64,000 bases of DNA from an uncultured Clostridia bacterium (GTDB taxonomy: Bacteria; Bacillota; Clostridia; TANB77; UBA1234). The notes under the pieces are model-generated. The model was not told where the DNA came from. It did no database searches and was given only the letters and a program-made list of their open reading frames with translations. Of the stretch, positions 1 through 33,066 are shown piece after piece (position 1 is the first letter of the stretch; each line of letters opens with the position of its first letter). The translations under genes and the position numbers were made by a program. Where the stretch lies: positions 75,689 to 139,688 of the forward strand of contig CAKPEF010000002.1 in assembly GCA_934149305.1 (NCBI GenBank), given 5' to 3'.

Positions 1-1
1 T

Positions 2-3000
2 TTTAAAGATGGAAGCGAAAATGAGCAAGTAATTAAAAAGAGTAACGAACCTATAAGATTAAAATACAAAGCAAGAGAAGGATATATTTTAGAGGGATGG
101 AGCAAGAGTGACACATCAGTTACTTCTGAATATATGCCAGGCAGTCTATTTAACGAAAATGCAGACACAGATTTGTATGCAGTATGGAAAGAGGGAGAAC
201 CTGCAATATATACAATAACATTTAACGCGAATGGTGGTAAGGGTGCTCCAAAGCCAATAAAGAAAACACAAAGATTACCAGTAACATTGCCATCAGGTGA
301 TGAACTACCAACAAAGACAGGTTCAACATTCGTAGCATGGAGCATATCATCAGACAAAGAAAATGTAGAAGAAAGATATGCAGAAGGCGCAGAATATACA
401 AAAGATAATAATGTGACATTATTTGCAATATGGCAAGAAAGTGATGTAAGAGTTGAAGCAGTTGTTGTTCCAGAGGGAGCAGGAAATGTAGTAGGAACAG
501 GCGTAAAAGAGGTAGGCAATATAGTTTATGTAACTGCTGTTGCAAATAAAGGGTACGCATTTGATAAATGGAAAGTTTTAAGTAATAATACAAAATTAGA
601 GAATACATATGCAGAAAAAACAAAATTTACAATGCCAGGTACCAAAGTAACATTGCAAGCAACATTTAAAGAGACAAGTTATGACTATGTAATAAAATAT
701 GATTCAAATGGTGGAAGTAATGCACCAAACACACAATATAAGAAGCAAAATCAAGATATAACGATAAGCACAATGTTACCAACTAGAAGTGGATATAAGT
801 TTACAGGTTGGGATGACACAGCCTTAGCAACAACAGTAAAATACCACCCTGGTGATACATATTCAAAAAATGCAAGTGCAATACTATATGCAGTATGGGA
901 AAAGAATACAGATGAAGTTACATTAACATTTGATTCAAATGGTGGAACAAAAGCACCAAAGAGTATAACAAAACCAAAAGACACAATAATATCAATACCT
1001 ACAGAAAAGCCAGTAAGAAACAACTTATTATTCTTGGGTTGGAGCGAAGATAAAGAAGCAACAGTTCCAGAGTACAGAATAAGCGATTCGTATACACTGG
1101 CAGAAAACGAAACACTTTATGCAGTATGGTCAGATTCAGAAAAAGCAGTAGTAAATATAACGGCAGGCGAAGAAAACGACAACTTAGTCCTATTTGGAAA
1201 TGCAGTAGATAACGGTGGAATAGTAAAATATGCATGGACAAATGAATTCTATTCTGAATCAAATCAAAACAAAATAAGTTGGGTAAGCCTAAGTAGCAGA
1301 CAAGATGAAGTATCAATCAAAAAAGATGTATTAAAATCAGGAATGCATTATTTCTATGTACAAGACATAGATGGAAATATATCATATGCATCAATAGATG
1401 TATATAAACTAACATTTAAGTCAGATGTAAACGGAAGTGTATTTGTAACAAAATATAAAGCTGCAGGATTTGGCATAGAGCTTACAAAGCAAAAACCAAA
1501 AAAGACAATGCAAGCATTTAAAGCATGGAAATCAGAAAAAGACAATAGAGTATATTCAAAACATGAAAAATACATATTAGATAGCGATGAAACATTCGTA
1601 CCAGTATGGGGGGATGCAATAGCATATATTCCATCAACAGACACATATTATTTATCGACACAAGAGGCAGTTGAAGCAATACCAACAGATTGCACAGATT
1701 ATGTGTTAATAAAACTAGTAGCAAATGATCCATCTGATGGAGTAACAATAAAAGCAGGACAAAAAGTATCGTTAAATACAGAAACATTTATGATAAACTC
1801 AAATAACACCACAATCAGCATAGAAGAAGGCGGAGCATTCAAATTAGTTGGAGGAACCGTAAAAGGCTCAAATTACGCCATAAGAAACTTTGGTAAGCTA
1901 GAAGTAAGTGGAGGAACAATAAATGCAAAATACGCGGTATATAACGCCAAAGAAATGGTAATGGGAGATAGTAGCATAGAATTTGCAAAAGATAGTGCAA
2001 AATTAGAAGGAACAAGAAGCTCATATATAAAAGCAAATGCAGAAGCAACACTTGCAATATATAACGGAAGCTTCACTGATTACAGAAACACAGAAACAGG
2101 TGGAACATATTCAGTAGATGTAACAGGAGCAACAATAAGAGATGGCTTCAAACTAAGAAAAATCGGTGATTCAACAACATCATCAATAATAACAACAATC
2201 GTACAAAAACTAAAAATAGCGCAAACAGTAGTAGCGGGAACAGAAGCGAAACCAGTAGAAAAGAAAATAACACTATCGTGTGACAACAACAACTTCACAT
2301 TCCAATATAGCCTAGATGGTGGAACAACATGGATAACAGGAAAAGAAGTAAATGTAATAGACAATGGAAAAGTATATGGAAGAATAGTAGATCAAGATGG
2401 AGTAGCAGACATAATCGACACAACAGTAAGTGATATAGTAGAACTAAAAGTCACATTTGATGCTCAAGGAAAGGTAACAAATCCATCACAAATAAGTGTA
2501 AAATATAAGAGAACTTATGGAGATAAACTACCTGCAATCAACGACAGTAGCTTGGATTACTACTTTTTAGGGTGGTATACGGCTTCAACAGGAGGAACAC
2601 AGGTGAAAAATACGGATAATGTAACAATAGCAACGGATCACACGTTATATGCGCAGTGGAAGGCGAAGTATGCGACTGTCACATATAGCCCAGGAGCATA
2701 TGCATCAAGTTTAAGTGCAAATTGTTGTATAAATGGAACTTGGAGCGGATACTATGCATCTGGTTCATATACTGGAAGTAGTCCACAACAAATGATTTTA
2801 ATAGGAAATACATACAGAACAGTATTTGTTACAAAAGAAAATTATGAAACTTATATAAAGAGTGGAGGAACAGCTACAGAAGATGGAAAGTACTATGCAG
2901 TAAATAGAGGAATGCCAAGCAATCCTAGTTCAAACGACTATAGATACGAATTCGAATGTTGGCGTGACGCAAACGGAAACAAAATCACAAGTAGTTCTGT

Positions 3001-3574
3001 AGTTTCAATTACAGGAGATCATACAATAACTGCTTCATGGAGCAAGGTAAGCTGTAAGTGCTCAAAATGTTCAAAAACATATTTAACAGATTGTAATTGC
3101 ACAAACAGTATATGTAGCAAATGTAGTGGTAATGTGTGCACATATCACTGCCCAGGCCACACATATTATTGCTCATGTAGTGCATGTTCTAATGAAGTTT
3201 CTACGAGTGGAGCAAGATGCTCATCATGTAGTTCAAACGATTGTAGTACTTGTGGAAGTTGTTATAATTGTTGCCCAGGACATAGCTCAGGAGGGGGAAG
3301 TTCTGGTGGCGGAAACACTTGTACATTCTGTTCTGGAAGCGGAGTAGTTGCCGCAACAATAGAAGTGGTTTCTTCATATAATACAGGTTCGCCATGTTCT
3401 TGTGGAAATAGTGATTTGTACCTTGAAGAAAGATGCACAGGTTGCGGTTCAACATATTCAAATTCACATGCAACGTGTATTGTATGTGGTGGCAGTTGGG
3501 GACCATGGAAACAACAACATGCTAATTGTAAAGTGAAGTGTGGGCATTGTAATGGTACGGGCCAAAGTAACTAA
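2..3574 (+). CDS. large secreted surface protein, 5-prime partial (frame open from nt 2). It has many Listeria-Bacteroides (InlB B-type / Flg_new) repeats ending in LYAxW and a Cys-rich C-terminal module with DnaJ-like CxxCxGxG motifs
   Basis: The ORF is open to the window edge. It contains repeated GYxFxGW...LYAVW units and a C-terminus CKVKCGHCNGTG with many CxxC pairs. No LPXTG motif is present. Confidence 0.7.
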   Translation, partial: FKDGSENEQVIKKSNEPIRLKYKAREGYILEGWSKSDTSVTSEYMPGSLFNENADTDLYAVWKEGEPAIYTITFNANGGKGAPKPIKKTQRLPVTLPSGDELPTKTGSTFVAWSISSDKENVEERYAEGAEYTKDNNVTLFAIWQESDVRVEAVVVPEGAGNVVGTGVKEVGNIVYVTAVANKGYAFDKWKVLSNNTKLENTYAEKTKFTMPGTKVTLQATFKETSYDYVIKYDSNGGSNAPNTQYKKQNQDITISTMLPTRSGYKFTGWDDTALATTVKYHPGDTYSKNASAILYAVWEKNTDEVTLTFDSNGGTKAPKSITKPKDTIISIPTEKPVRNNLLFLGWSEDKEATVPEYRISDSYTLAENETLYAVWSDSEKAVVNITAGEENDNLVLFGNAVDNGGIVKYAWTNEFYSESNQNKISWVSLSSRQDEVSIKKDVLKSGMHYFYVQDIDGNISYASIDVYKLTFKSDVNGSVFVTKYKAAGFGIELTKQKPKKTMQAFKAWKSEKDNRVYSKHEKYILDSDETFVPVWGDAIAYIPSTDTYYLSTQEAVEAIPTDCTDYVLIKLVANDPSDGVTIKAGQKVSLNTETFMINSNNTTISIEEGGAFKLVGGTVKGSNYAIRNFGKLEVSGGTINAKYAVYNAKEMVMGDSSIEFAKDSAKLEGTRSSYIKANAEATLAIYNGSFTDYRNTETGGTYSVDVTGATIRDGFKLRKIGDSTTSSIITTIVQKLKIAQTVVAGTEAKPVEKKITLSCDNNNFTFQYSLDGGTTWITGKEVNVIDNGKVYGRIVDQDGVADIIDTTVSDIVELKVTFDAQGKVTNPSQISVKYKRTYGDKLPAINDSSLDYYFLGWYTASTGGTQVKNTDNVTIATDHTLYAQWKAKYATVTYSPGAYASSLSANCCINGTWSGYYASGSYTGSSPQQMILIGNTYRTVFVTKENYETYIKSGGTATEDGKYYAVNRGMPSNPSSNDYRYEFECWRDANGNKITSSSVVSITGDHTITASWSKVSCKCSKCSKTYLTDCNCTNSICSKCSGNVCTYHCPGHTYYCSCSACSNEVSTSGARCSSCSSNDCSTCGSCYNCCPGHSSGGGSSGGGNTCTFCSGSGVVAATIEVVSSYNTGSPCSCGNSDLYLEERCTGCGSTYSNSHATCIVCGGSWGPWKQQHANCKVKCGHCNGTGQSN
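2581..2660. repeat. left arm of an ~80-bp inverted repeat inside the surface protein gene (3 mismatches to the 4531-4610 arm)
   Basis: Direct comparison: tcaacaggaggaacacaggtgaaaaatacggataatgtaacaatagcaacggatcacacgttatatgcgcagtggaaggc matches the reverse complement of 4531-4610. Confidence 0.85.
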
Positions 3575-3600
3575 TATGTTTTTCTAAACATAAAATTTAA

Positions 3601-3640
3601 AGCTGAATGAAATTTTTCAGAATTTCATTCAGCTTTTATA
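3601..3640 (+). terminator. rho-independent terminator of the surface protein gene, usable in both orientations
   Basis: Perfect 14-bp stem agctgaatgaaatt/aatttcattcagct, flanked by A-rich upstream and T-rich downstream. Confidence 0.8.
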
Positions 3641-3950
3641 TTGAATATTGTTATATGAGTATTTCAAAAACAGAAAAAAATTTTTTATATAGAATGCCAC
3701 AACTAAAATATATTTTTTAGCACCATTTTATTAAAATCGCAAATCTATTTGAGATAAAAATGATTTTCTTCAATTTTTTCGTACTTGTTTTATGAAAATA
3801 TTCAATTTTTATTGACTTGAACATAAACAAATGATAATTTATTCCAAAAAGCAATTTTTCAATGAACTGCGCCCCAAAAGTTAAACAAAAATGTTTAATA
3901 ATGATATAAATGTTAAGGCACTTCTCAGAAATTGAGAGGTGCCTGTATTT

Positions 3951-4612
3951 TTATATTGTTCCTTTTCCGTGACATCTTCCACATGTTTTTGTGTGAGTGC
4001 CACCTCCGGTAACGGAATAAGTTTTGTGACAGCTTCCACATGTTCCATTATTACTATAGTCGGTTGCATATCCACATTTATTGCATACCAGTCTTGCAGT
4101 ACCAACACTATTTGAACCGCAAGTGCACAAACCATTTGAAGATGTTCCCTCGACAACAAATGTCCCACAAGCTATACTGCCGGTTCCTTTGCAATCTGGG
4201 CATTGAGTTGTTGTACTTCCGCCACCAGTACTTCCACCTCCGCTAGATGTAGGAGTTGGTGTAGGAGTTGGTGTAGGAGTTGATGTTGGCGTAGGTGTAG
4301 GCGTTGGTCTTAGTGTCCAATGAGCATACAATGTGTGGTTTGTTATTGTAGTAACAGTTGTATTACTAGTTATATGACTTCCTCCACTTCTACTTGTATA
4401 CCAATCATCGAAATCATACCCAGATCTTGATGGTGTTGGTAGTGAACCATATTTTTGATTTATTGTTACTGTCTTTGAGGAAGTTGATACACTTCCTCCG
4501 TTTGCATCGAAACTAACTGTAACTGTTTTTGCCTTCCAGTGTGCATATAACGTGTGATCCGTTGCTATTGTTACATTATCAGTATTTTTCACCTGTGTTC
4601 CTCCTGTTGAAA
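3951..4612 (-). pseudogene. promoterless, start-less paralogous C-terminal cassette of the surface protein (two B-repeats + PT-rich linker + Cys-rich CxxCxGxG module), inverted relative to the expressed gene
   Basis: Minus-strand frame encodes STGGTQVKNTDNVTIATDHTLYAHWKAK..., matching residues encoded at 2586-2660. The ORF-track extension to 4790 runs through tRNA-His and is artefactual. Confidence 0.6.
4531..4610. repeat. right arm of the inverted repeat (pairs with 2581-2660)
   Basis: Reverse complement equals the 2581-2660 segment apart from 3 mismatches. Confidence 0.85.
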
Positions 4613-4674
4613 AGAAAAATAGTCCAGAGCAACCTATGTTAAAAAATGGCAAAAAACTTGTTTGTAAATAATTA

Positions 4675-4703
4675 TTGACAAGCGTGGAAAAATAAGTTAC
4701 AAT
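4675..4703 (+). promoter_or_regulatory. sigma-A type promoter for the tRNA-His/tRNA-Gln operon
   Basis: TTGACA, 17-nt spacer, TACAAT; lies 20 nt upstream of tRNA-His. Confidence 0.6.
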
Positions 4704-4723
4704 ATATCTTGCATTGGAAAGAC

Positions 4724-4801
4724 GGTGGATGTAGCTCAGTTGGTTAGAGCGCCAGGTTGTGGCCCTGGAGGCCGTGGGTTCGAGTCCCATCTTTCACCCC
4801 A
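4724..4801 (+). tRNA. tRNA-His (anticodon GTG) with encoded G-1
   Basis: Cloverleaf folded by hand. Anticodon loop is ttGTGgc, extra 5-prime G pairs with discriminator C73, CCA is encoded. Confidence 0.8.
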
Positions 4802-4812
4802 TAATTTAATAT

Positions 4813-4888
4813 TGGGCTGTAGCCAAGTGGTAAGGCACCAGACTTTGACTCTGGCATTTCGGCGGTTCGAATCCTCCCAGCCCAGCCA
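4813..4888 (+). tRNA. tRNA-Gln (anticodon TTG)
   Basis: Acceptor tgggctg/cagccca, anticodon loop ctTTGac, T-loop GGTTCGAATCC, CCA is encoded. Confidence 0.8.
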
Positions 4889-4935: not shown

Positions 4936-5187
4936 GTCACAATGGGGTGGTAGCCAAAATTATTTTGGGCAGAACCTAATTTTAAAAGCGGACTTTAAGT
5001 ATAACTTTTGAAATTTATTAAAAAATTTTTCGAAGCAGCAAAATGTCCGCAAATGTGCAGGTATCCATATTTTTAGGTGAAAATAATTTTTGTGTCGAAA
5101 GATGTCGAGCAATTTTAGTTGTAAATTGTATATAAATGGTATAGAACTAAGTTGTACGAAAATTTGGGAAAAGAGGGAGATTTTGTA

Positions 5188-6547
5188 ATGAACAATATGA
5201 TTGAAATGCAAAATTTGCTTGGTGCAAATGAAGTATTTAAATGGATAGCAAGCACTGTGATATTTTCAATTTTGTATTCGTTATTAAATATATATGTTTT
5301 TAAAACTTTACTAAATGTGAAGATTAAGTCTAATACAATTGTTTACTTATTGTTAGCAGATTCGCTTTTCAAAGCACTTTGTTCTATATTTATTCCAGCA
5401 CCGTATTATAGGATTATTAATATGTTTTTTACGGTCGTATTATTTAGATTGTTTACTCGGACAGAATATAGAAAAATGCATTATTAGTGAAGCTGCTAAT
5501 TTTATTGTAATAATATGCTCAGAAACTATATTTTTGGAGTTGTTTATGAATGTTTTTGAGTATGTAGATTCATATGTAAGCGGAATGTATGATTTTAAAT
5601 ATAAGACTTGTGTTGTTGCTTCAATTTTTTTGGTAAAACTTATTATATATCTATGGTTAAGGTATAAAAATGTTGTTGTTAAAATTAGTGATCATTTTAG
5701 AGCAAGAATAAGAAATTCTTTGATAGTGGTTTCTGTTCTTGAGGTAATGCTAATATTCTTTAATTTTGTTGAGATGGCGATATATATATCTGATTTTCCA
5801 TATAGCATACTTGTACTAGATATTTTTGCTTTAGCTATATTTTTCAATTATAGCATAAAACACATATTAAAGTGTGCAAGGCTAGAAGAACAAGACGTTA
5901 TTATTGAAAATTTGGAGGCGTATAATAAAACATTATCAATAATGTATGATAGAATTCGCTGTTTTAAACATGATTTTTCTAATTTTGTGCAAGCACTTGA
6001 TGGATACGCAAAGACAGATGATATGAGCGGAATAAAAACTATGACTAAGTCTGTACTTAAAGAATGTAAATCAGTAAATAATATGGGAATATTAAATCCA
6101 AAAGTAATAAACAATCCCGCAATATACAGTATAATAACAAACAAATATTATGTTGCTATTGAAAAGATGGTGCAGATGAACATAGAGGTGATGTTTGATT
6201 TAAAAGAAATAAGTGCAGATGCGTATGAACTTTGTGTTATATTTGGAATCCTTTTAGATAACGCAGTAGAAGCTGCGGAAGAAAGTGAAGAAAAGATTGT
6301 AAATATTAGATTTGAAAAAAATAAGAAAAATGTAAAAACAATTTTAGTTGAAAACTCATACAAAAATAAAAATGTAGATATAGGTCAAATATTTGAAAAA
6401 GGTTATAGTACAAAAGAGGTTAAAGGCAAAAAGGGCGAAAGAGGAATTGGCCTTTGGAATGTGAGAAGAATGTTAAGTCATTCAAGTAAGCTTAATTTAT
6501 TAACTTCAAAAGGCGAATTTTTTAGACAAGTGATAGAAGTTTATTAA
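5188..6547 (+). CDS. AgrC/ComD-like GHKL sensor histidine kinase (polytopic N-terminus, HATPase C-terminus). It is interrupted by an in-frame CGG at 5458-5460, after which the frame moves +1. It is given as two ORFs in the track (5152-5487 and 5534-6547)
   Basis: C-terminus GERGIGLWNVRRMLS is typical of AgrC-family HATPase_c_5. The region 5459-5533 is open in the downstream frame. The joined length (~450 aa) fits the family. Confidence 0.6.
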
Positions 6548-14816: not shown

Positions 14817-16007
14817 TTATTTTGTAAAGGCATATTCGCCTAAGAATAAAATCTCACCAGAAACTTCGTCTCTGATAAAATAAGTAAAAGGTCTATTAGC
14901 TTTAAACTCTTTTATTTCCTCAGGCATTGGCAATGAATTCTTTGTCATTAAAATAACTGTTGCGGCAGCAGCCTCGGTGCCATTCTCGTCTACCTCAATA
15001 AATGTTTTATGGATAACATCAGATATGTGTGCTTCTACATTATCAAACATATTAGAAAAGTCTGCAGCATTTGTAAAAGCAATATTTATTCCCATTTGTT
15101 TTAAAACATCAACAAAACTTTTTGTAAATTCTGTTCTAAACTTTGGCATACTTACAGAAACTTTTTTGTATTCCATTTTGCTGATAATATCATTTATATC
15201 AACATCTTTATCATCATCATTAAGTAAAATGTACATCGCAATATCTCTGCCAGAGTAATTCATTTTAAGCATTTGAACTCCATCATTTTCATAATATCCA
15301 AAGTGTTTTGTTTGGTTCATAAAATCAATTTCAGATTTGTTTCCGTTTCTATCTGTAAAAGTATCCTTTTTAGTATTTGCTGTGTCAAACTGATTTTCAA
15401 AAGAACCTTTAAAATAAATAGTGTTAACAAGTGCAGATAAAAAGCCTGCAGGCCTTTCTGCTGGCAAGACATTAGTTATTTTATTGTTCGTTTCTTTAGC
15501 AATGAAATCATTGATTTTACTAGCGATGATGTCGGCATTTTCTTCCATTGCAACACCTTTGTAAAAATCAGAAATTATTTTTTTGTAAGTATCTTTAAAA
15601 TTAGCACCCATTGCCTCAGTTTTGTTTAACCAAATAGAATTAGCAACATTTAAATTAACATCCTTATTAGAATTATATCTAGTAATAATATCGTTTGCTT
15701 TTTGATTGTATTCATCAATGCTAGAAACACCAAGAGCGCTTAAAATCTCTTTTTGAGTGTAACCATTTGCACCGTTTGCAGCCATCATCATGGCCATTTT
15801 AATACTAAAAGGTGAAATCATATAGTTTTGGTCTTTAGGCATATATTTCATAAAATCAAAATCACTCTCATATGAAGAAGAAATCTCATAACTCATATCA
15901 CCAGAATAAATATCACCAGAACTTGGCTTAATGACATCAGTATCACCTTTCATTGTGCAACCTCCTAACATAAATAAACTAACTAAAATACTAAGTGCTT
16001 TAATCAT
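14817..16007 (-). CDS. serpin (serine protease inhibitor) lipoprotein
   Basis: Lipobox LGGC. Serpin hinge GTEAAAAT of the reactive-centre loop and a conserved C-terminal region. Confidence 0.75.
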   Translation of the reverse strand: MIKALSILVSLFMLGGCTMKGDTDVIKPSSGDIYSGDMSYEISSSYESDFDFMKYMPKDQNYMISPFSIKMAMMMAANGANGYTQKEILSALGVSSIDEYNQKANDIITRYNSNKDVNLNVANSIWLNKTEAMGANFKDTYKKIISDFYKGVAMEENADIIASKINDFIAKETNNKITNVLPAERPAGFLSALVNTIYFKGSFENQFDTANTKKDTFTDRNGNKSEIDFMNQTKHFGYYENDGVQMLKMNYSGRDIAMYILLNDDDKDVDINDIISKMEYKKVSVSMPKFRTEFTKSFVDVLKQMGINIAFTNAADFSNMFDNVEAHISDVIHKTFIEVDENGTEAAAATVILMTKNSLPMPEEIKEFKANRPFTYFIRDEVSGEILFLGEYAFTK

Positions 16008-16239: not shown

Positions 16240-16475
16240 GGCACATGAAATGTAGCGGAGCACAGCGTGCTCCATAAAAGTATGTCGGCACCAACATGAT
16301 GAAACACAGTTTAAACCAATACCACAATTAGTAATAATGGCACACAAAAAGTAGCGGAGCTTAAGTGTGCTCCATAGAAAATATGTTGGCGACAATATAA
16401 CAAAACACAAATTCCACAATTGATAATAGGACACATAAAATGTAGCGGAGCTTAGGTGTGCTCCATAAAAAAGAG
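16240..16475 (+). repeat. tandem triplet (~73-bp period) of the GGAGC-hairpin repeat, immediately upstream of 16494
   Basis: Three units ...ccacaattagtaata.tggcacaNaaaa.gtagcggagc....gtgtgctccataaaa... Confidence 0.85.
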
Positions 16476-16493
16476 AAAAGGGGGGGAAGTTTA

Positions 16494-17345
16494 ATGGAAA
16501 TAAATGATGCAGATTCAAATCAAAATAATGAATTAGGTATAAATAATATAATAATACTTAAACCATATGAGCCAACAAATTATCGAAGGATAGTAAATGT
16601 TGTTTCTGATATTGGGTACAAGACTTTTTTCATTATCGCAATTATTGCACTGATTTGTACGATTAGAAGACATGAAAAAAATAAGAAAAATGAGGAAGCC
16701 AAAAAAAGCATAACACGAGGAGTTGTTCTTACAATAATATTTTTTATAATTTCAATTTTTGTATGGCTTGTCCATGTAGCAACAGAGTGTCTTACTGAAA
16801 AACCAATAATCTATCTATATCCAGAAGAAGAAACCAATATAGAAGTAAAATTAGGCAAGAAAGAAAATATAACATGTTCGTATCCAAAGTATGAAAACGG
16901 ATGGAAGGTTGTAGCAAATCCAAACGGAGATTTAAAATACATAGAAAATGGTAAAAACTTATATGCCCTATATTATGAAGCAAAGACAGAAAAAGAAAAT
17001 AAAGTAGAAAAAGAGGGCTTTGTAGTAAAAGGCGAAGATAGTGCCAATTTCTTAGAAGAAAAACTTGAAATATTAGGACTAAATGAAAGAGAGTCTGAAG
17101 AATTTATAGTATACTGGCTACCAAAGCTAGAAGCAAATAAATATAACTACATAAGATTTTTAAACAAAGAAGAAATAGAAGAAAACATGCCACTAGAAAT
17201 AGAGCCAAAACCAGATACACAAATAAGAGTTTTAATGACATTTAAGGGACTAAATAAAGAAATAAAAGTAGAAGAACAACAATTAACAAGAGTAGAAAGA
17301 AAAGGATATACAGTAGTAGAATGGGGCGGAAGCGAAATAAAATAA
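16494..17345 (+). CDS. hypothetical membrane-anchored protein (paralog A1). The C-terminal ~190 aa are identical to the 19414 product
   Basis: Start moved to the ATG after the RBS AAAAGGGGGGG; the track extension MLHKKEK lies inside the repeat. Two N-terminal TM helices. Confidence 0.6.
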   Translation: MEINDADSNQNNELGINNIIILKPYEPTNYRRIVNVVSDIGYKTFFIIAIIALICTIRRHEKNKKNEEAKKSITRGVVLTIIFFIISIFVWLVHVATECLTEKPIIYLYPEEETNIEVKLGKKENITCSYPKYENGWKVVANPNGDLKYIENGKNLYALYYEAKTEKENKVEKEGFVVKGEDSANFLEEKLEILGLNERESEEFIVYWLPKLEANKYNYIRFLNKEEIEENMPLEIEPKPDTQIRVLMTFKGLNKEIKVEEQQLTRVERKGYTVVEWGGSEIK

Positions 17346-19169: not shown

Positions 19170-19395
19170 AAAATGTAGCGGAGCACAGCGTGCTCCATAA
19201 AAGTATGTCGGCACCAACATGATGAAACACAGTTTAAACCAACACCACAATTAGTAATAGTGGCACACAAAAAGTAGCGGAGCTTAAGTGTGCTCCATAG
19301 AAAATATGTTGGCGACAATATAACAAAACACAAATTCCACAATTGATAATAGGACACATAAAATATAGCGGAGCTTAGGTGTGCTCCATAAAAAA
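19170..19395 (+). repeat. tandem triplet of the GGAGC-hairpin repeat upstream of 19414
   Basis: Nearly identical to the 16240-16475 array. Confidence 0.85.
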
Positions 19396-19413
19396 GAAAA
19401 AGGGGGAATCTTA

Positions 19414-20277
19414 ATGGAAATAAATGAGGCAGATTTAAATCAAAAAAATGAATTAGATATAAATAATATAACGATAGCTGAAATACCTAAAGCAACCAAT
19501 TATCGAAGGATAATAAATATTGTTTCTAATATTGGATGCAATATTTTTTTCATTATTGCAATTATTGCACTGATTCTCACAATTAAGAGACATATAAAAA
19601 ATAAAAAAAATGAAGAAAAAAAGAGCATAGTACTTGGAATTGTTTTAACAGTAATATTTTTTTGTGTTTCACTAGTAGCGTGGGTGGTATATTTAGAAAC
19701 CAATTGGATAAATTATTCGCAAGCGGTTAAAAAACCAATAATCTACCTGTATCCAGAAGAAGAAACCAATATAGAAGTAAAGTTAGGCAAGAAAGAAAAT
19801 ATAACATGCTCGTATCCAAAGTATGAAAACGGATGGAAGGTTGTAGCAAATCCAAACGGAGATTTAAAATACATAGAAAATGGTAAAAACTTATATGCCC
19901 TATATTATGAAGCAAAGACAGAAAAAGAAAATAAAGTAGAAAAAGAGGGCTTTGTAGTAAAAGGCGAAGATAGTGCCAATTTCTTAGAAGAAAAACTTGA
20001 AATATTAGGACTAAATGAAAGAGAGTCTGAAGAATTTATAGTATACTGGCTACCAAAGCTAGAAGCAAATAAATATAACTACATAAGATTTTTAAACAAA
20101 GAAGAAATAGAAGAAAACATGCCACTAGAAATAGAGCCAAAACCAGATACACAAATAAGAGTTTTAATGACATTTAAGGGACTAAATAAAGAAATAAAAG
20201 TAGAAGAACAACAATTAACAAGAGTAGAAAGAAAAGGATATACAGTAGTAGAATGGGGCGGAAGCGAAATAAAATAA
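19414..20277 (+). CDS. hypothetical membrane-anchored protein (paralog A2)
   Basis: C-terminal domain identical to A1; N-terminal TM region diverged. Confidence 0.6.
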   Translation: MEINEADLNQKNELDINNITIAEIPKATNYRRIINIVSNIGCNIFFIIAIIALILTIKRHIKNKKNEEKKSIVLGIVLTVIFFCVSLVAWVVYLETNWINYSQAVKKPIIYLYPEEETNIEVKLGKKENITCSYPKYENGWKVVANPNGDLKYIENGKNLYALYYEAKTEKENKVEKEGFVVKGEDSANFLEEKLEILGLNERESEEFIVYWLPKLEANKYNYIRFLNKEEIEENMPLEIEPKPDTQIRVLMTFKGLNKEIKVEEQQLTRVERKGYTVVEWGGSEIK

Positions 20278-28854: not shown

Positions 28855-31800
28855 ATGTTTAGTTTAACAGAGCCACAAAAGAATGTAATTGAAACGGATC
28901 AATTTTTTAAAAACACTTCAATTTCAAATATTGGAGGTTATTCGAGATTTTTAGACAGAGTAGATTTGGAACTAATGAAAAAAGCCATAAATAAATTAAT
29001 CGAAAATGCAGATGGGCTAAGACTTAGGCTAAAAAATGATAATGGTGAAATAAGTCAGTATATAGAGCCTTACAGAGAAGAAAAAATTGAGATTATTAAA
29101 TTGGATGGAGAAAACCCTATGGTCCAAAGCGAGAAATGGATGAGAAAACCATTTGGCTTTACATCTAAATTGTATGACTTTAAATTGGTTGAATTAGATG
29201 GCGAAGAAGGAATTTTCATAAAACTACATCATGCAATATCTGATGCATGGTCTATGGCAATTGTTTATTCGAAGGTTCTTATGTATTACGAGGCTTTGTT
29301 AAACGGAGAAGAAATACAAAATGATATACCTTCATATACTTTATTTTTAGAGAGTGAAAAAGAATATTTTAACTCAAAAAACTATGAAAGAGATGAAGAA
29401 TATTGGAATGAAAAATATAATGAAAAACCAACTTTTGTTTCACTTGCAAGTAAAAAAGGAGTAATAAGCGTAGCAGCTTCAAGAAAATCATTTATTATAT
29501 CAAAAGAAGAAAAGAAAGTAATAGAAGACTTTTGCACAGAAAATGGGATTTCTATGGCAGTATTTTTTGAAGCAGTTGTTTCTTTGTATGCTTCGAGAAC
29601 TAATAATGCTGATGATATTACACTTTGTACGATAGGTGTAAATAGATCAGGAAAAACCGAAAAGAAAATAGTAGGTATGTTTAATAATATTTTACCAATG
29701 ACAGTTAAAATTGATTGGAATTCGGATTTTAAAAATTTATGTAATAGCATTACAAAGGCACATTTTGAAATCTTTAGACATCAAAAATATCCGTACCAAA
29801 AAATAATGCATGCTATTAGCGAAAAACACGGAAGTTCTAATATTTATGATATAATGGTATCTTTTCAAAATGCAAAATATGATGAAAATATAAAAACAAA
29901 ATACAAAACAGAATGGATTTTTAATGGTTGTGCAGAACTTAGCTTTATGATGAATATAGCTGATATGGAAGGTGCGGGCGTATTAGATGTAAATATAGAT
30001 TATAAAGATGAAGCATTCACGGAAAATGAAATAGAGAAAATATATGCAAGACTTATGCATATAGTACAGCAAGTAATAAGGAAAAAAGAAATATCATTTA
30101 AAGATATAGAGGTTGTTACTGATGATGAGAAATTAGAAATATTGAAAAAATTTAATGATACTAAAAAAGATTATCCAAAAGAAAAGAGAATATATGACTT
30201 TTTAGAAGAGAATGTTATGAAATTTCCTCAAAAAGATGCATTATATTTTGAGGAAAATAAGATGTCATATTGTGAGTTTAATCAAAAAGTAAATTCACTT
30301 GCAAACTATATCATAAGCAAAAATGTAAAGCATAATTCAATAATAGGAATTATGCAAGAACGTTCATTTGAAATGCTTATAAGTATTTATGCAGCATTAA
30401 AAGCTGGCTGTGCATATATGCCTATGGACCCACATTTTCCAAACGATAGAATAGAATTCATGTTAGAAGATAGTGAAGCACCTATTGTTCTTACTAATTC
30501 AAAATGGTTGGACAAGTTAACGATGGCAAAAGAATGCGTGGAAGTAGATAAGTTTGATTATGAAAAATATTCAAAAGAAAATCCTAAAATAGATGTATCT
30601 TCAAAAGATGTGGCATATGTAATTTATACATCAGGTTCTACTGGAAAACCAAAAGGTGCGCAAATACAACATCATAGTGCAATAAACAGAATAAAATGGA
30701 TGCATGAACATTATCCTCTTTTGAAAGATGATGTAATACTTCAAAAAACCCCATATACTTTTGATGTGTCAGTATGGGAACTATTTTGGTGGAGCATGTA
30801 TGGCGGTAGCTTGAAAATACTTATACCAGAAGGACACAAGGATCCATTAGAAATAATAAATGCAATAGAAGATAAAAATGTAACACATATGCATTTTGTA
30901 CCATCTATGTTAATGGCATTTTTACAGTATATAAAAATAAATAAGAATCAAATTTCAAGATTAAAAACATTAAAATATGTTTTTGCAAGTGGTGAGGCTC
31001 TTCAAAGTGAACACGTAAAAGATTTTTATAACTTGCTAGGTCAAAATGGAACAATACTTATAAATTTGTATGGACCAACTGAATGTACGGTTGATGTTTC
31101 GTGTTATGAATGTCCTAAAGAAAACATACCAAGTATAATTCCGATAGGCAAGCCTATTGATAACACACAACTTTTGATATTAGATAAAGCTAATAAATTG
31201 TTGCCAGTCGGTGTTGCAGGAGAACTTATAATAAGTGGTGTGTTAGTAGGAAAAGGATACATAAAAAGAGATGAACTAACAAACGAAAAATTTATAAAGA
31301 ATGAATATTATGACTCTGAAAAAATGTATAAAACAGGTGACTTAGCAAGATGGCTTCCTGATGGAAACATTGAATACTTAGGAAGAATAGATAATCAAAT
31401 TAAAATTAGAGGTTTAAGAGTTGAACTTGGTGACATAGAAAATACTATACTTAAATATGCTTCTATAGCTGAAACTGTTGTTACAGTGTTCGAAAACATG
31501 GGAGAAAAATACTTGTGTGCATACTTTACAGCAACCGAAGAAATAGCAATACCAAAACTAAAAGAAGAGCTATCAAAAGAATTACCGGACTATATGGTAC
31601 CAACATATTATGTGCAATTGGACAAAATGCCATTAAATCATAATGGAAAAATAGATAGAAAAGCTTTACCAAAGCCAGATACAAATATCGAAGAAAAATA
31701 TATTGCACCTCAAAACGAGTTAGAAAAGAAATTACAAGAATGTGCCGAAAGAGCTTTAAAGAGAAAAAATATAAGCGTTGAGAGTGATTTGCTTTTATCT

Positions 31801-33066
31801 GGTCTTACATCACTAGGAGTTATTGCATTAATCACAGAATTATCTAACATGGGTATAGAGGTTAAAGTGCAAGACTTTTATAGAGGAAAGAGCATAAGAA
31901 AACTAGCCAATATCTTGTTAGGTGATGATAAAAAAGATGAAGATTATAAAGATGATGAAAATTATAAAGATATATCAGACATAAAAGATATAGTGGTAGA
32001 AACGAAGAATGATGGGGATATACTATTAACAGGTGTAACAGGATTTCTTGGAATTCATTTGCTAGAAGAACTATATAAAACAACAAATAGAAAAATTTAT
32101 TGTATTATTAGAAAAAAAGAAAAATATGATGAATTCTTGAAAACATATACAAGTATTCCAAAAGAAAATGACAGGGTAATAACATTAAATGGTGATATAA
32201 CTAATGAAAAATTAGGCTTGGATGATAATGTGTACGAGAAATTGACACATGACGTTTCTATTGTAATTCATTCAGCTGCTAATGTTTCATACTTCTGTTC
32301 ATTTGAGAAAGCAAGAGCAATTAATTACATTGGGACATGCAATGTAATTGAGTTTGCTAAATTAAGTAATGCAAAATTACATCATATTTCAACGATGAGT
32401 GTTTCGGGAGATGTACTTACTAAGCAAACTATGGAATATCCAAATTTGACGGAAGATAAGTTATATATAGGACAACTATATAAAGAAAATGTTTATGCAT
32501 ATACAAAATATTTAGCTGAAAAAGAGGTTATAAAAAATATAAGAGAGAAGAAATTATCAGCATCAATATATCGTTTGCCAAACTTAACTTGGAGAATGAA
32601 AGATGGAAAGTTCCAAAAGAATTATGAAGAAAACGATTTATATATTTTGACAAAAGTAATGGCAAGAATGAATAAAATACCATTGGAAATAAAGAATGAA
32701 AATATTTTATTGGCACCAATAGATGATTTAGCAAGAGCAATAGTATTACTAATAAATAAAAAGACTCAAAATGAGGTATATCATCTAGTTAGTTCATCAA
32801 GCCCAACAATAGAAGGATATATAAAAATGCTTACTGATGCGGAGACAGTACCAATTGCAGAAATGTACAAAATACTATTAGATAATTATCAAGATAAAGA
32901 AATGCAATTTGTATCGATGTATGTAAAAGGAATTTTAAATGATGCAGAGAAAATGGTAGTACACGTACATTATGAAAAAACGGAAAAAGAGTTAGAAGAA
33001 TTAGGATTTAAATGGGGAAAAATCGATAAAGAATACGTAGAAAAGATAAAACAAATAGGTAAATAA
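28855..33066 (+). CDS. single-module nonribosomal peptide synthetase, C-A-T-R (condensation, adenylation, thiolation, terminal NAD(P)H thioester reductase)
   Basis: C domain HHAISDAWS; A domain YTSGSTGKPKG, NLYGPTE, YKTGD, GRIDNQIKIRG; carrier Ser in LSGLTSLG; R domain TGVTGFLG Rossmann motif. Confidence 0.85.
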   Translation: MFSLTEPQKNVIETDQFFKNTSISNIGGYSRFLDRVDLELMKKAINKLIENADGLRLRLKNDNGEISQYIEPYREEKIEIIKLDGENPMVQSEKWMRKPFGFTSKLYDFKLVELDGEEGIFIKLHHAISDAWSMAIVYSKVLMYYEALLNGEEIQNDIPSYTLFLESEKEYFNSKNYERDEEYWNEKYNEKPTFVSLASKKGVISVAASRKSFIISKEEKKVIEDFCTENGISMAVFFEAVVSLYASRTNNADDITLCTIGVNRSGKTEKKIVGMFNNILPMTVKIDWNSDFKNLCNSITKAHFEIFRHQKYPYQKIMHAISEKHGSSNIYDIMVSFQNAKYDENIKTKYKTEWIFNGCAELSFMMNIADMEGAGVLDVNIDYKDEAFTENEIEKIYARLMHIVQQVIRKKEISFKDIEVVTDDEKLEILKKFNDTKKDYPKEKRIYDFLEENVMKFPQKDALYFEENKMSYCEFNQKVNSLANYIISKNVKHNSIIGIMQERSFEMLISIYAALKAGCAYMPMDPHFPNDRIEFMLEDSEAPIVLTNSKWLDKLTMAKECVEVDKFDYEKYSKENPKIDVSSKDVAYVIYTSGSTGKPKGAQIQHHSAINRIKWMHEHYPLLKDDVILQKTPYTFDVSVWELFWWSMYGGSLKILIPEGHKDPLEIINAIEDKNVTHMHFVPSMLMAFLQYIKINKNQISRLKTLKYVFASGEALQSEHVKDFYNLLGQNGTILINLYGPTECTVDVSCYECPKENIPSIIPIGKPIDNTQLLILDKANKLLPVGVAGELIISGVLVGKGYIKRDELTNEKFIKNEYYDSEKMYKTGDLARWLPDGNIEYLGRIDNQIKIRGLRVELGDIENTILKYASIAETVVTVFENMGEKYLCAYFTATEEIAIPKLKEELSKELPDYMVPTYYVQLDKMPLNHNGKIDRKALPKPDTNIEEKYIAPQNELEKKLQECAERALKRKNISVESDLLLSGLTSLGVIALITELSNMGIEVKVQDFYRGKSIRKLANILLGDDKKDEDYKDDENYKDISDIKDIVVETKNDGDILLTGVTGFLGIHLLEELYKTTNRKIYCIIRKKEKYDEFLKTYTSIPKENDRVITLNGDITNEKLGLDDNVYEKLTHDVSIVIHSAANVSYFCSFEKARAINYIGTCNVIEFAKLSNAKLHHISTMSVSGDVLTKQTMEYPNLTEDKLYIGQLYKENVYAYTKYLAEKEVIKNIREKKLSASIYRLPNLTWRMKDGKFQKNYEENDLYILTKVMARMNKIPLEIKNENILLAPIDDLARAIVLLINKKTQNEVYHLVSSSSPTIEGYIKMLTDAETVPIAEMYKILLDNYQDKEMQFVSMYVKGILNDAEKMVVHVHYEKTEKELEELGFKWGKIDKEYVEKIKQIGK

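What the first reader, a model, noticed from the sequence alone, without database searches (positions are those of the whole stretch)
2581..4610. Candidate recombinational C-terminus switching system for the B-repeat surface protein
A promoterless, start-less cassette on the opposite strand (3951-4612) encodes an alternative C-terminal module. It consists of two B-repeats, a PT-rich linker and a Cys-rich domain with DnaJ-like CxxCxGxG motifs. It shares an ~80 bp inverted repeat (2581-2660 vs 4531-4610, 3 mismatches) with the expressed gene. The repeat sits exactly at a B-repeat end (DHTLYAQWKAK), where the two C-termini diverge.

Homologous inversion of 2661-4530 would fuse the expressed N-terminal ~840 aa in frame to the alternative C-terminus, which ends at the TAA at 3951-3953. 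The current C-terminus would become the silent cassette. A perfect 14-bp hairpin at 3601-3640 is flanked by A-rich and T-rich runs, so it could terminate transcription in either orientation.

This is the architecture of inversion-based antigenic or phase variation, like sapA or shufflon-style systems. No site-specific recombinase is seen nearby.
Basis: partly seen in the sequence, partly recalled or inferred. Interest (0 to 1): 0.75.

Follow-up and report, generated by a model that had tools for sequence, protein, structure and literature searches.

The report
Shufflon-like C-terminus switch, surface protein
An uncultured human-gut bacterium keeps a silent, promoterless spare tail-end for a giant repeat-rich surface protein next to the gene in inverted orientation; a sister strain shows such spare parts really are flipped at a 19-bp site, but this strain has only ever been seen in one orientation.

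Summary
An 84-nt inverted repeat (2584-2667 / 4528-4611, 80/84 identical) links the 3' part of a 1460-aa InlB-B-repeat protein gene to a promoterless, start-less cassette on the opposite strand. Inversion would give an in-frame fusion. Each C-terminal module has its own terminator hairpin.

Strain comparisons support a cassette-exchange system:
- Seven silent cassettes from five strain types all keep intact 195-275-codon ORFs.
- The cleanest silent-versus-silent comparison gives dN/dS 0.18.
- Three Cys-rich tip types occur expressed in one strain and silent in another.
- Three metagenome contigs of one clone are 99.96-100% identical except for a clean inversion of a 1,656-bp two-cassette segment.

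That crossover lies inside a 19-bp core (TTCAACAGGAGGAACACAG), the only long exact match between the two repeats there (69% identical).

Caveats:
- No recombinase lies within about -5 to +61 kb.
- All assemblies of the window's own 2-copy strain type that reach the switch (seven contigs checked base by base; others reported by the look-up tool as having the same gene neighbourhood) show the same orientation.
- No flipped isoform was found.

This is a new member of a known kind: gene-altering programmed inversions, or shufflons.

The parts
1..2583 (+). Constant 5' part of the big surface-protein gene. The gene starts about 810 nt before the window; it is 1460 aa in the collinear contig L016.
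   Evidence: The ORF runs off the left end of the window. Five Flg_new repeats and one Flg_new_2 repeat are present. The full-length sequence comes from L016. This part is 96-100% identical between strain types up to the core.
2584..2602 (+). 19-bp core, expression-site copy (TTCAACAGGAGGAACACAG). It is the proposed recombination site and the constant/variable junction.
   Evidence: There are exactly 2 copies in 64 kb, against 0 expected. It is conserved at every cassette 5' end in relatives. The crossover of the L002/L003 inversion is confined to it.
2584..2667 (+). Left arm of the 84-nt inverted repeat. It encodes STGGTQVKNTDNVTIATDHTLYAQWKAK.
   Evidence: 80/84 identical to the right arm.
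2603..3574 (+). Currently expressed C-terminal module Ca: B-repeat tail, a divergent B-repeat body, Cys-rich region 1, a Gly linker and Cys-rich tip 'alpha'. Stop codon at 3572-3574.
   Evidence: Translation. Pfam gives only weak Flg_new matches.
3290..3314 (+). Secondary inverted repeat in the Gly-linker coding DNA; its partner is 4217-4241. It is a possible sub-module exchange point.
   Evidence: pair I3 (25 nt, 92%). L006 carries a Ca-type body joined to the Cb-type tip, with the junction near this linker.
3599..3636 (+). Terminator hairpin of module Ca.
   Evidence: dG -20.4 kcal/mol, z -5.6.
3916..3944 (-). Terminator-like hairpin directly downstream of the silent cassette's stop codon.
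   Evidence: z -5.5. The same element lies downstream of the big gene's stop in L002 (window 3891-3944 matches L002 12996-13047).
3951..4592 (-). Silent C-terminal cassette Cb: B-repeat tail, one full B-repeat, a PT linker, a Gly linker and Cys-rich tip 'beta'. Stop TAA at 3951-3953.
   Evidence: An exact 213-aa ORF is called in 9 other contigs. The same tip is expressed in L006.
4217..4241 (-). Partner of the secondary Gly-linker inverted repeat.
   Evidence: pair I3.
4528..4611 (-). Right arm of the 84-nt inverted repeat. Its outermost 19 nt (4593-4611) are the second core copy.
4612..4888 (+). Fixed outer boundary of the locus: an AT-rich spacer, a tRNA promoter (4675-4703), tRNA-His (4725-4801) and tRNA-Gln (4813-4888), all pointing away from the cassette.

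Best explanation
**What it is.** The locus is a shufflon-like, gene-altering inversion system for the C-terminal 'tip' of a giant (1460-aa) B-repeat surface protein of an uncultured low-GC gut bacterium.

**Layout.** The constant part of the gene ends at a 19-bp core (2584-2602). Downstream lie two tail-to-tail C-terminal modules, each with its own terminator. Ca is expressed. Cb is silent: it has no promoter, starts in the middle of a B-repeat and is preceded by an inverted copy of the core.

**Proposed mechanism.** Reciprocal recombination between the two inverted cores would invert 2603-4592. It would fuse the constant part in frame to Cb and make Ca the silent copy. I infer that a site-specific recombinase encoded elsewhere in the genome does this.

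**Variation between strains.** Sister strains carry a third cassette and different tip domains. The species as a whole therefore maintains a mosaic repertoire of Cys-rich tips.

**Shown.**
- The anatomy of the locus.
- The in-frame fusion after simulated inversion.
- Conservation and coding constraint of silent cassettes.
- A real inversion between two cassettes in one clone, with the crossover inside the core.

**Inferred.**
- That the same reaction acts on the expression-site core.
- That a dedicated recombinase catalyses it.
- That the window's own strain still switches.
- That the purpose is variation of binding specificity or antigenicity.
For: - **Anatomy and frame:**
- **Core statistics:** the core is present exactly twice in 64 kb, against 0 expected.
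- **Core position in relatives:** every cassette in five strain types starts at the core, with unrelated DNA upstream.
- **Observed inversion:** L003 and L004 (two samples, MEGAHIT and SPAdes) are 100% and 99.96% identical to L002, except that L002 9982-11637 is inverted. The alignments overlap by exactly the 19-bp core at both ends.
- **Too little homology for RecA:** the two recombining repeats are only 58/84 identical, with a longest exact run of 19.
- **Neutrality argument (inference):** that inversion only swaps two silent cassettes, so it is selectively neutral. Seeing both states within one clone argues for a high rate.
- **Sharp boundary:** between strain types, identity falls from about 0.95 to 0.74, 0.56 and 0.12 starting at the core.
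- **Cassette integrity:** seven of seven silent cassettes keep 195-275-codon ORFs in a 30% GC genome.
- **Purifying selection:** silent Cg in L009 versus L021 gives dN/dS 0.18.
- **Tips seen in both positions:** alpha is expressed in the window and silent in L002. Beta is silent in the window and expressed in L006. Gamma is expressed in L009 and silent in L021.
- **Own terminators:** each module has its own terminator hairpin.
- **Predictive attributes:** all four sequence attributes that Milman et al. [quoted passage not shown]
- **Remote recombinases are known:** for example RecV and Mpi (PMC5903667).
- **Contig-end geometry:** SPAdes contig L004 begins 36 nt before the expression-site core (36 + 19 = 55, which I take from memory to be the usual largest metaSPAdes k; the assembly's k was not checked). 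It ends on the last base of another core, as expected if the assembly graph branches at the cores.
Against: - No tyrosine or serine recombinase was found in the 61 kb downstream or about 5 kb upstream.
- All assemblies of the window-type strain that reach the switch have the same orientation. L001, L007, L008, L016, L102, L103/L105 and L106 were verified. Further contigs were reported as 'similar places'.
- The ORF diagnostic of the flipped state (323 aa) exists in a 15-billion-protein collection only as an artefact of N-runs in scaffold L102.
- An inversion involving the expression-site core has not been directly observed in any strain.
- The core shows no obvious dyad symmetry and does not resemble the shufflon repeat consensus quoted in PMC5430464.
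- Three strain types (L001, L006, L009) have a 1-nt difference between the expression-site core and the silent core.
- L021 has a degenerate core with a 1-nt insertion.
- Some rearrangements in the family are plainly illegitimate or homologous: the deletion in L006 and the gene-conversion tract in the L001 repeat.
Confidence: 0.58

Rival explanations
1. **RecA-dependent homologous inversion across the 84-bp repeat.** This is the first reader's sapA-like model. General recombination between the two 95%-identical arms flips the segment, and no dedicated enzyme is needed.
For: - The window's repeat is long for a recombinase site: 84 nt, with a longest exact run of 38.
- The L001 expression-site repeat carries cassette-type bases at repeat positions 70, 73 and 82. 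This is a gene-conversion tract showing that the two arms do interact by homology.
- No recombinase lies nearby.
- recR is in the window.
Against: - The only documented inversion used repeats that are 69% identical, with just 19 identical bases. From my own knowledge, that is below the usual minimal efficient processing segment for RecA pathways.
- In the 3-copy strain, the expression-site repeat and the inverted cassette repeat share only a 21-nt exact run. Homology cannot be the general mechanism in the species.
- Homology begins exactly at the core in every copy.
Confidence: 0.17
2. **Evolutionary reservoir, not a programmed switch.** The cassettes are 5'-truncated paralogue remnants. They occasionally donate sequence to the expressed gene, by rare recombination or gene conversion over evolutionary time. 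In the window's strain the locus is effectively fixed.
For: - Every window-type assembly examined has one orientation, and no flipped isoform exists in the public collections searched.
- The modules are mosaic, with junctions at PT/Gly linkers.
- L001 carries a gene-conversion tract.
- There are deletion derivatives and degenerate cores (L006, L021).
- No recombinase lies nearby.
Against: - Two inversion states occur within one clone that is otherwise 99.96-100% identical over 2-11 kb. This indicates a recent event that is probably frequent and selectively neutral.
- Silent cassettes show purifying selection and intact ORFs across strains that differ by 5-12% in DNA.
- The perfectly conserved 19-bp core sits at the edge of otherwise diverged repeats.
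- Each cassette retains a terminator.
Confidence: 0.2
3. **Independent small gene.** The cassette is a separate gene of about 213 aa, translated from the GTG that follows the AGGAGG inside the core. It is not a spare part.
For: - The core contains AGGAGG 7 nt before a GTG (ATG in L021).
- Gene callers therefore annotate 189-222-aa 'Flg_new' ORFs.
Against: - No promoter reads into it.
- The product would begin in the last third of a B-repeat and have no signal peptide.
- The AGGAGG is explained by the Gly-Gly codons of the conserved STGGTQ motif, which is also present in the expressed gene.
- The same modules occur fused to the big gene in other strains.
Confidence: 0.03

Closest known systems
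Gene-altering programmed inversions, also called 'partial intergenic invertons' (Milman et al. 2023, PMC9881135; Chanin et al., PMC10028968)
   Same: - An inverted repeat lies inside a full-length gene and inside a 5'-truncated partner arranged tail-to-tail.
- Inversion swaps the 3' coding part.
- All four predictive attributes are met: repeat >=44 bp, CDS distance <=2588 bp, orientation matching, and asymmetry >=0.87.
- Intra-species structural variation is present at the locus.
   Different: - The target family (InlB B-repeat / Flg_new protein with Cys-rich tips) is not among the families named in that paper's main text.
- There is no adjacent recombinase.
- Variation at the expression site itself has not yet been seen.
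R64 / IncI shufflon (PilV C-terminal segments, 19-bp repeats, Rci; PMC5430464)
   Same: - A constant N-terminal part is joined to alternative C-terminal segments.
- A conserved repeat of about 19 bp sits at the constant/variable junction, and the crossover occurs there.
- Partial ORFs are arranged in opposite orientations.
- The number of segments differs between isolates through insertion or deletion of segments.
   Different: - The locus is chromosomal and in a low-GC Gram-positive-type gut bacterium.
- The core sequence is unrelated to the shufflon repeat consensus (GTGCCAATCCGGTNNGTGG).
- There is no rci-like gene next to it.
- The target is not a PilV-family protein.
- It has only 1-2 invertible segments.
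Phage Mu/P1-type tail-fibre switches (Gin/Cin/Hin family serine invertases); features given from my own knowledge
   Same: Inversion replaces the C-terminal, specificity-determining part of a long fibrous protein while the N-terminal part stays constant.
   Different: - Those systems have an adjacent serine invertase gene and 26-bp sites with dyad symmetry. Neither is seen here.
- This locus is not in a prophage.
   Same: Inversion brings an alternative silent surface-protein coding sequence to a single expression site.
   Different: - sap uses several hundred bp of conserved 5' homology and RecA, and it exchanges whole genes behind one promoter.
- Here the 3' end is exchanged, and the documented crossover used 19 bp.
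Neisseria pilE/pilS and similar silent-cassette gene-conversion systems; features given from my own knowledge
   Same: - Cassettes are promoterless and 5'-truncated.
- They encode variable parts of a surface protein.
- Alleles are mosaic across strains.
- A conversion tract is seen in the L001 repeat.
   Different: - The event documented here is a reciprocal inversion, not a non-reciprocal transfer.
- The cassettes are complete 3' ends with their own terminators, in inverted orientation.

Membership tests
Gene-altering programmed inversion (attributes of Milman et al. 2023) | Long inverted repeats (>=44 bp) inside both coding sequences | tested here: met
   84 nt, 80/84 identical; threshold taken from PMC9881135
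Gene-altering programmed inversion (attributes of Milman et al. 2023) | Short distance between the two CDSs (<=2588 bp) and an orientation that matches the repeat positions (tail-to-tail, repeats upstream of the swapped parts) | tested here: met
   The stop codons are 377 bp apart (3574 vs 3951) and the CDSs converge
Gene-altering programmed inversion (attributes of Milman et al. 2023) | Gene/pseudogene asymmetry: one partner lacks everything upstream of the repeat | tested here: met
   The cassette has 0 nt of homologous sequence upstream of the core. The gene has 2583 nt in the window, about 3390 nt in full
Gene-altering programmed inversion (attributes of Milman et al. 2023) | Intra-species variation consisting of an inversion bounded by the repeats | tested here: inconclusive
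   Met in the 3-copy sister strain, for the segment between two silent cassettes (L002 vs L003/L004). Not seen for the window's own repeat pair in any assembly
Gene-altering programmed inversion (attributes of Milman et al. 2023) | [quoted passage not shown] | tested here: not met
   None found from about -5 kb to +61 kb
Classical shufflon (R64/IncI, Rci) | Conserved repeat of about 19 bp at the constant/variable junction, with recombination occurring at that repeat | tested here: met
   A 19-bp core starts every cassette. The L002/L003 crossover is confined to it
Classical shufflon (R64/IncI, Rci) | Repeat matches the shufflon consensus GTGCCAATCCGGTNNGTGG | tested here: not met
   The core is TTCAACAGGAGGAACACAG; the consensus is quoted in PMC5430464
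Classical shufflon (R64/IncI, Rci) | Adjacent rci tyrosine recombinase gene | tested here: not met
   No Phage_integrase-family ORF in the window or in the sequenced flanks of relatives
Classical shufflon (R64/IncI, Rci) | Target is the type IV pilus tip adhesin PilV | tested here: not met
   Only Flg_new and Flg_new_2 domains were detected. The N-terminus gives only sub-threshold pilin/pseudopilin hits: E 0.012 and 0.1, 12.6-15.7 bits against cut-offs of 88.85-138
RecA-dependent sap-type inversion | Hundreds of bp of near-identical homology at the exchange point | tested here: not met
   84 nt in the window; only 19-21 nt of exact identity in the strain where inversion is documented
RecA-dependent sap-type inversion | Dependence on recA | not testable with these tools
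   Needs genetics or a heterologous assay
Hin/Gin/Cin serine-invertase switch | Adjacent serine invertase (resolvase-family) gene | tested here: not met
   No resolvase-family ORF in the Pfam and NCBIfam scans of window ORFs. The imperfect-dyad 26-bp site was judged by eye only
Silent-cassette gene conversion (pilE/pilS-like) | Non-reciprocal transfer from a promoterless cassette into the expression site | tested here: inconclusive
   The cassettes are promoterless and truncated. One conversion tract occurs in the L001 repeat and alleles are mosaic. However, the only clone-level event seen is a reciprocal inversion

The most novel reading that the evidence does not exclude
This is a recombinase-orphan chromosomal shufflon in an uncultured gut Bacilli/Clostridia lineage. 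A remote 'master' invertase acts on an asymmetric 19-bp core to shuffle Cys-rich (CxxCxGxG, zinc-ribbon-like) tip domains of a previously undescribed family. The protein that carries them is giant and N-terminally anchored, and its leader resembles a prepilin/pseudopilin lacking Glu5. That would make it a Gram-positive functional analogue of the PilV tip-adhesin shufflon. Secondary exchange at the PT/Gly-linker repeats would add combinatorial diversity to the tips.
Probability: 0.15. Interest if true: 0.7.

Novelty: new member of a known kind. Interest (0 to 1): 0.48.

Why it matters
If it is active, a common but uncultured human-gut bacterium (present in Hadza and other cohorts) can change the exposed tip of a 1460-aa surface protein without mutation. 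That would affect adhesion, immune recognition or phage susceptibility.

It would add the widespread InlB-B-repeat protein class to the known targets of programmed inversions. It would also be another case where the invertase is not next to its site, which matters for inverton-finding pipelines that rely on nearby recombinases.

There is a practical warning too. The ~200-aa 'B-repeat proteins' called at such loci are silent cassettes rather than genes.

Tried and rejected
1. **Flipped isoform via the diagnostic ORF.** I searched for the ORF that the flipped state would create. P0080 (323 aa) is 100% identical to module Ca and looked like a hit. However, its contig L102 is collinear with the window and is merely broken by N-runs, so I rejected it as an artefact.
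2. **GTDB species representatives.** They contain no relative of the big gene. Of the 80 HSP20-anchored loci from related species, none has a cassette or big-gene relative (tblastn); the only core match at <=3 mismatches (L086) falls inside its HSP20 gene. No cross-species comparison was therefore possible, and the organism could only be placed near uncultured gut Clostridia/Bacilli MAGs (Clostridium sp. CAG:571, Ca. Coprovivens).
3. **JGI metagenome scan.** It returned one short, odd contig (L005) that I could not interpret.
4. **Homology search with the region upstream of the repeat.** It did not return the full-length proteins, so fusion isoforms could not be enumerated that way.
5. **More 3-copy-type and other strains via their HSP20 alleles.** Contigs either break in the tRNA genes or carry a prophage or integrative element at the tRNA site, so they gave no further orientation data.
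6. **Contig breaks near the tRNAs as evidence of heterogeneity.** I rejected this because the breaks fall inside the multi-copy tRNA genes. Only the ends of L004 coincide with the cores.
7. **AlphaFold model of the cassette product.** Mean pLDDT was 34, so it was unusable and no fold search was run.
8. **Family searches on the Cys-rich tips.** Pfam, NCBIfam and PDB sequence searches gave nothing above noise.
9. **The split AAA_14/DUF4143 gene between cassettes in 3-copy strains.** I considered it as a recombinase candidate and rejected it, because neither domain family is a recombinase family.

Full report
**1. The observation**

The window opens inside a large plus-strand ORF that ends at 3574. 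On the minus strand, an ORF-competent stretch runs from 4611 down to a TAA at 3951-3953.

The two share an inverted repeat at 2584-2667 / 4528-4611: 84 nt, 80/84 identical, longest exact run 38. Homology starts abruptly. Upstream of the cassette copy there is unrelated AT-rich DNA, then a near-consensus promoter (4675-4703) and tRNA-His/tRNA-Gln, all pointing away from the cassette.

Pfam finds five Flg_new (Listeria-Bacteroides/InlB B-repeat) units and one Flg_new_2 unit in the big protein. It finds one full unit in the cassette, which therefore begins with only the last 28 residues of a repeat.

Simulated inversion gives an uninterrupted fusion ending ...CGRCHGKGTI.

The hairpin at 3599-3636 is real. 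Each C-terminal module is therefore a complete 3' gene end.

The first 19 nt of the repeat (TTCAACAGGAGGAACACAG) occur exactly twice in the 64-kb window, even allowing three mismatches, against zero expected. No other cassette-like sequence is in the window.

**2. Organism and protein**

- Identical neighbour proteins occur only in human-gut metagenome assemblies and unnamed MAGs.
- The nearest named genomes are uncultured Clostridia/Bacilli MAGs, Clostridium sp. CAG:571 and Ca. Coprovivens, at 82% HSP20 identity or less. Of the 80 related-species loci, none has a cassette or big-gene relative (tblastn); the only core match at <=3 mismatches (L086) falls inside its HSP20 gene.
- The full-length protein (L016) is 1460 aa. 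It has a basic N-terminus followed by a hydrophobic segment (…SPKG LSMITLVITIVVVVIIATISIV…). This gives only sub-threshold pilin/pseudopilin hits. I treat it as an N-terminal anchor or leader and nothing more.
- The Cys-rich termini carry CxxCxGxG motifs and match no Pfam, NCBIfam or PDB family. An AlphaFold model was unusable.

**3. What relatives show**

The strain types I could compare fall into these groups:

- **(a) Window-type strains.** L001, L007, L008, L016, L102, L103/L105 and L106, plus 'similar places' not shown, are collinear with the window and have the same orientation.
- **(b) A 3-copy strain type (L002).**
  - The big gene carries a different C-terminus (Cd).
  - It has a split AAA_14/DUF4143 gene and two tail-to-tail cassettes of 237 aa (Ce) and 199 aa (Cc).
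  - Each cassette starts at the same 19-bp core.
- **(c) An inversion within that clone.**
  - L003 (another sample, MEGAHIT) is 100% identical to L002, and L004 (another study, SPAdes) is 99.96% identical.
  - The exception is the 1,656-bp segment L002 9982-11637, which is inverted.
  - The alignments overlap by exactly the 19-bp core at both ends.
  - The two recombining repeats are only 58/84 identical, and the core is their longest exact run.
  - A 19-bp repeat is shorter than the k-mers used by either assembler (contig names k119; SPAdes k from memory). Two assemblers gave the same structure, so this is not a misassembly (inference).
  - Because it merely exchanges two silent cassettes, it should be selectively neutral. 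Finding both states in one clone argues for a high rate (inference).
- **(d) L009.** The big gene is fused to a B-repeat + PT-linker + Cys-tip module (Cf). L021 holds the same module type as a silent cassette (P0013).
- **(e) L006.** The big gene has a Ca-type body but the window's silent Cb tip. A deletion removed the silent cassette.

Three tip types therefore occur in both expressed and silent positions across strains.

All seven silent cassettes keep intact 195-275-codon ORFs. The cleanest silent-versus-silent comparison (Cg, L009 vs L021) gives dN/dS 0.18 (11 synonymous and 7 non-synonymous differences). The other comparisons give 0.4-0.6 but are confounded by mosaicism.

Between strain types, nucleotide identity of the big gene drops sharply at the core.

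**4. Mechanism**

The data favour reciprocal recombination at the 19-bp core. A site-specific recombinase is the most economical explanation, as in shufflons, where Rci acts on 19-bp repeats at the constant/variable junction of pilV (PMC5430464).

No recombinase is encoded in the window or in the about 5 kb upstream that relatives let me see. Remote invertases are well documented, for example RecV and Mpi (PMC5903667; PMC9881135).

Homologous interactions also occur. The L001 expression-site repeat carries cassette-type bases at positions 70, 73 and 82. The PT/Gly-linker DNA forms a second inverted repeat, 3290-3314 / 4217-4241, near the L006 chimera junction.

SPAdes contig L004 starts 36 nt before the expression-site core, and 36 + 19 = 55, which I take (from memory) to be the usual largest metaSPAdes k-mer; the assembly's actual k was not checked. 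It ends on the outermost base of another core. That is the geometry expected if the assembly graph branches at the cores. It would mean the sample is mixed, possibly including an exchange at the expression site. This is suggestive and not proof.

**5. What is not shown**

- No assembly shows the window's own repeat pair recombined.
- The one apparent hit for the flipped state (P0080) is an artefact of N-runs.
- The uniform orientation in the verified window-type contigs and the further 'similar places' may reflect selection for Ca in the gut, a low rate in the 2-copy configuration, or loss of activity. The samples are not all independent.
- Some strain types have a 1-nt core mismatch (L001, L006, L009) or a degenerate core (L021).

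**6. Comparison with known systems and verdict**

The locus meets all four sequence attributes that predict gene-altering programmed inversions. It behaves like a shufflon.

It fails the defining features of the classical R64 shufflon: the repeat consensus, an adjacent rci gene and a PilV target. It also fails those of sap-type and Hin/Gin-type systems.

B-repeat proteins are not among the target families named in Milman et al.'s main text.

I therefore classify it as a new member of a known kind.

Noticed in passing
window 4725-4888; L010/L013 4456-6235; L117-L119 1-6176: The tRNA-His/tRNA-Gln site bordering the cassette is an integration hotspot. Some strains carry an element there with a 477-aa tyrosine integrase, HTH_17, DUF6076 and a DNA methylase. 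Others carry a prophage end (XhlA, Amidase_2) at the same place, which displaces the big gene by more than 10 kb.
   Followed up: partly
L005 (OQVL01040559.1) 1355-1766: In this short metagenome contig the big gene runs through the repeat. It then joins 4 unmatched bases, the reverse complement of window 2832-2722 (100% identical), and 297 bp that match nothing else fetched. It is either a chimeric assembly or another rearrangement and remains unexplained.
   Followed up: partly
window 2590-2605 and 4590-4605; L021 526-550: The core contains AGGAGG 7 nt before a GTG (ATG in L021). Gene callers therefore annotate silent cassettes as stand-alone 189-222-aa 'Flg_new' proteins (P0001, P0003, P0013). 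Many short B-repeat ORFs in databases may be such cassettes.
   Followed up: partly
L016 2020-2150 (upstream of the window): The N-terminus of the full-length protein (MKKLLKNPKEKIKSPKG/LSMITLVITIVVVV...) resembles a prepilin-type leader with Thr instead of Glu at +5. NCBIfam gives only weak hits to prepilin-dependent pilin (E 0.012) and GspG (E 0.1), and Pfam N_methyl was not detected.
   Followed up: partly
L002 11686-13003; L004 907-2224; L021 3-479: Three-copy strains carry an AAA_14 ORF (159 aa). In L002 and L004 it is paired with a DUF4143 ORF (258 aa); the L021 contig ends within the AAA_14 ORF. The gene lies between the expression site and the cassettes and looks like a split COG1373-type ATPase gene. 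Window-type strains lack it. L009 looks like an L021-type locus after deletion between two directly repeated cores.
   Followed up: partly
L006 5487-6081: L006 has no intact silent cassette. A core in direct orientation plus 32 nt of repeat is joined, by a 6-bp overlap, to the tRNA flank at a point 16 nt beyond the usual core position. This is a scar of an illegitimate deletion in the locus.
   Followed up: partly
window 5152-6547: A small multi-pass membrane ORF is followed by a GHKL/HATPase_c_5 histidine kinase with a SpoOB-type helical domain. It looks like an agr-like quorum-sensing module and sits immediately beyond the tRNAs.
   Followed up: no
window 28855-33066: A single-module NRPS-like gene (Condensation, AMP-binding, PP-binding and a terminal reductase; 1403 aa) lies downstream of a HAMP histidine kinase and an HD-domain response regulator.
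   Followed up: no
window 14817-16007 (-): A 396-aa serpin gene is conserved at this position in most strain types examined (absent from the fully sequenced interval in L117 and L120).
   Followed up: no
window 16458-17345 and 19381-20277: Two membrane-protein ORFs give weak NCBIfam hits (E about 0.002) to Mycoplasma ICE 'pilin-like conjugal transfer' proteins. This region varies between strains (283/136/246-aa ORFs in relatives).
   Followed up: no
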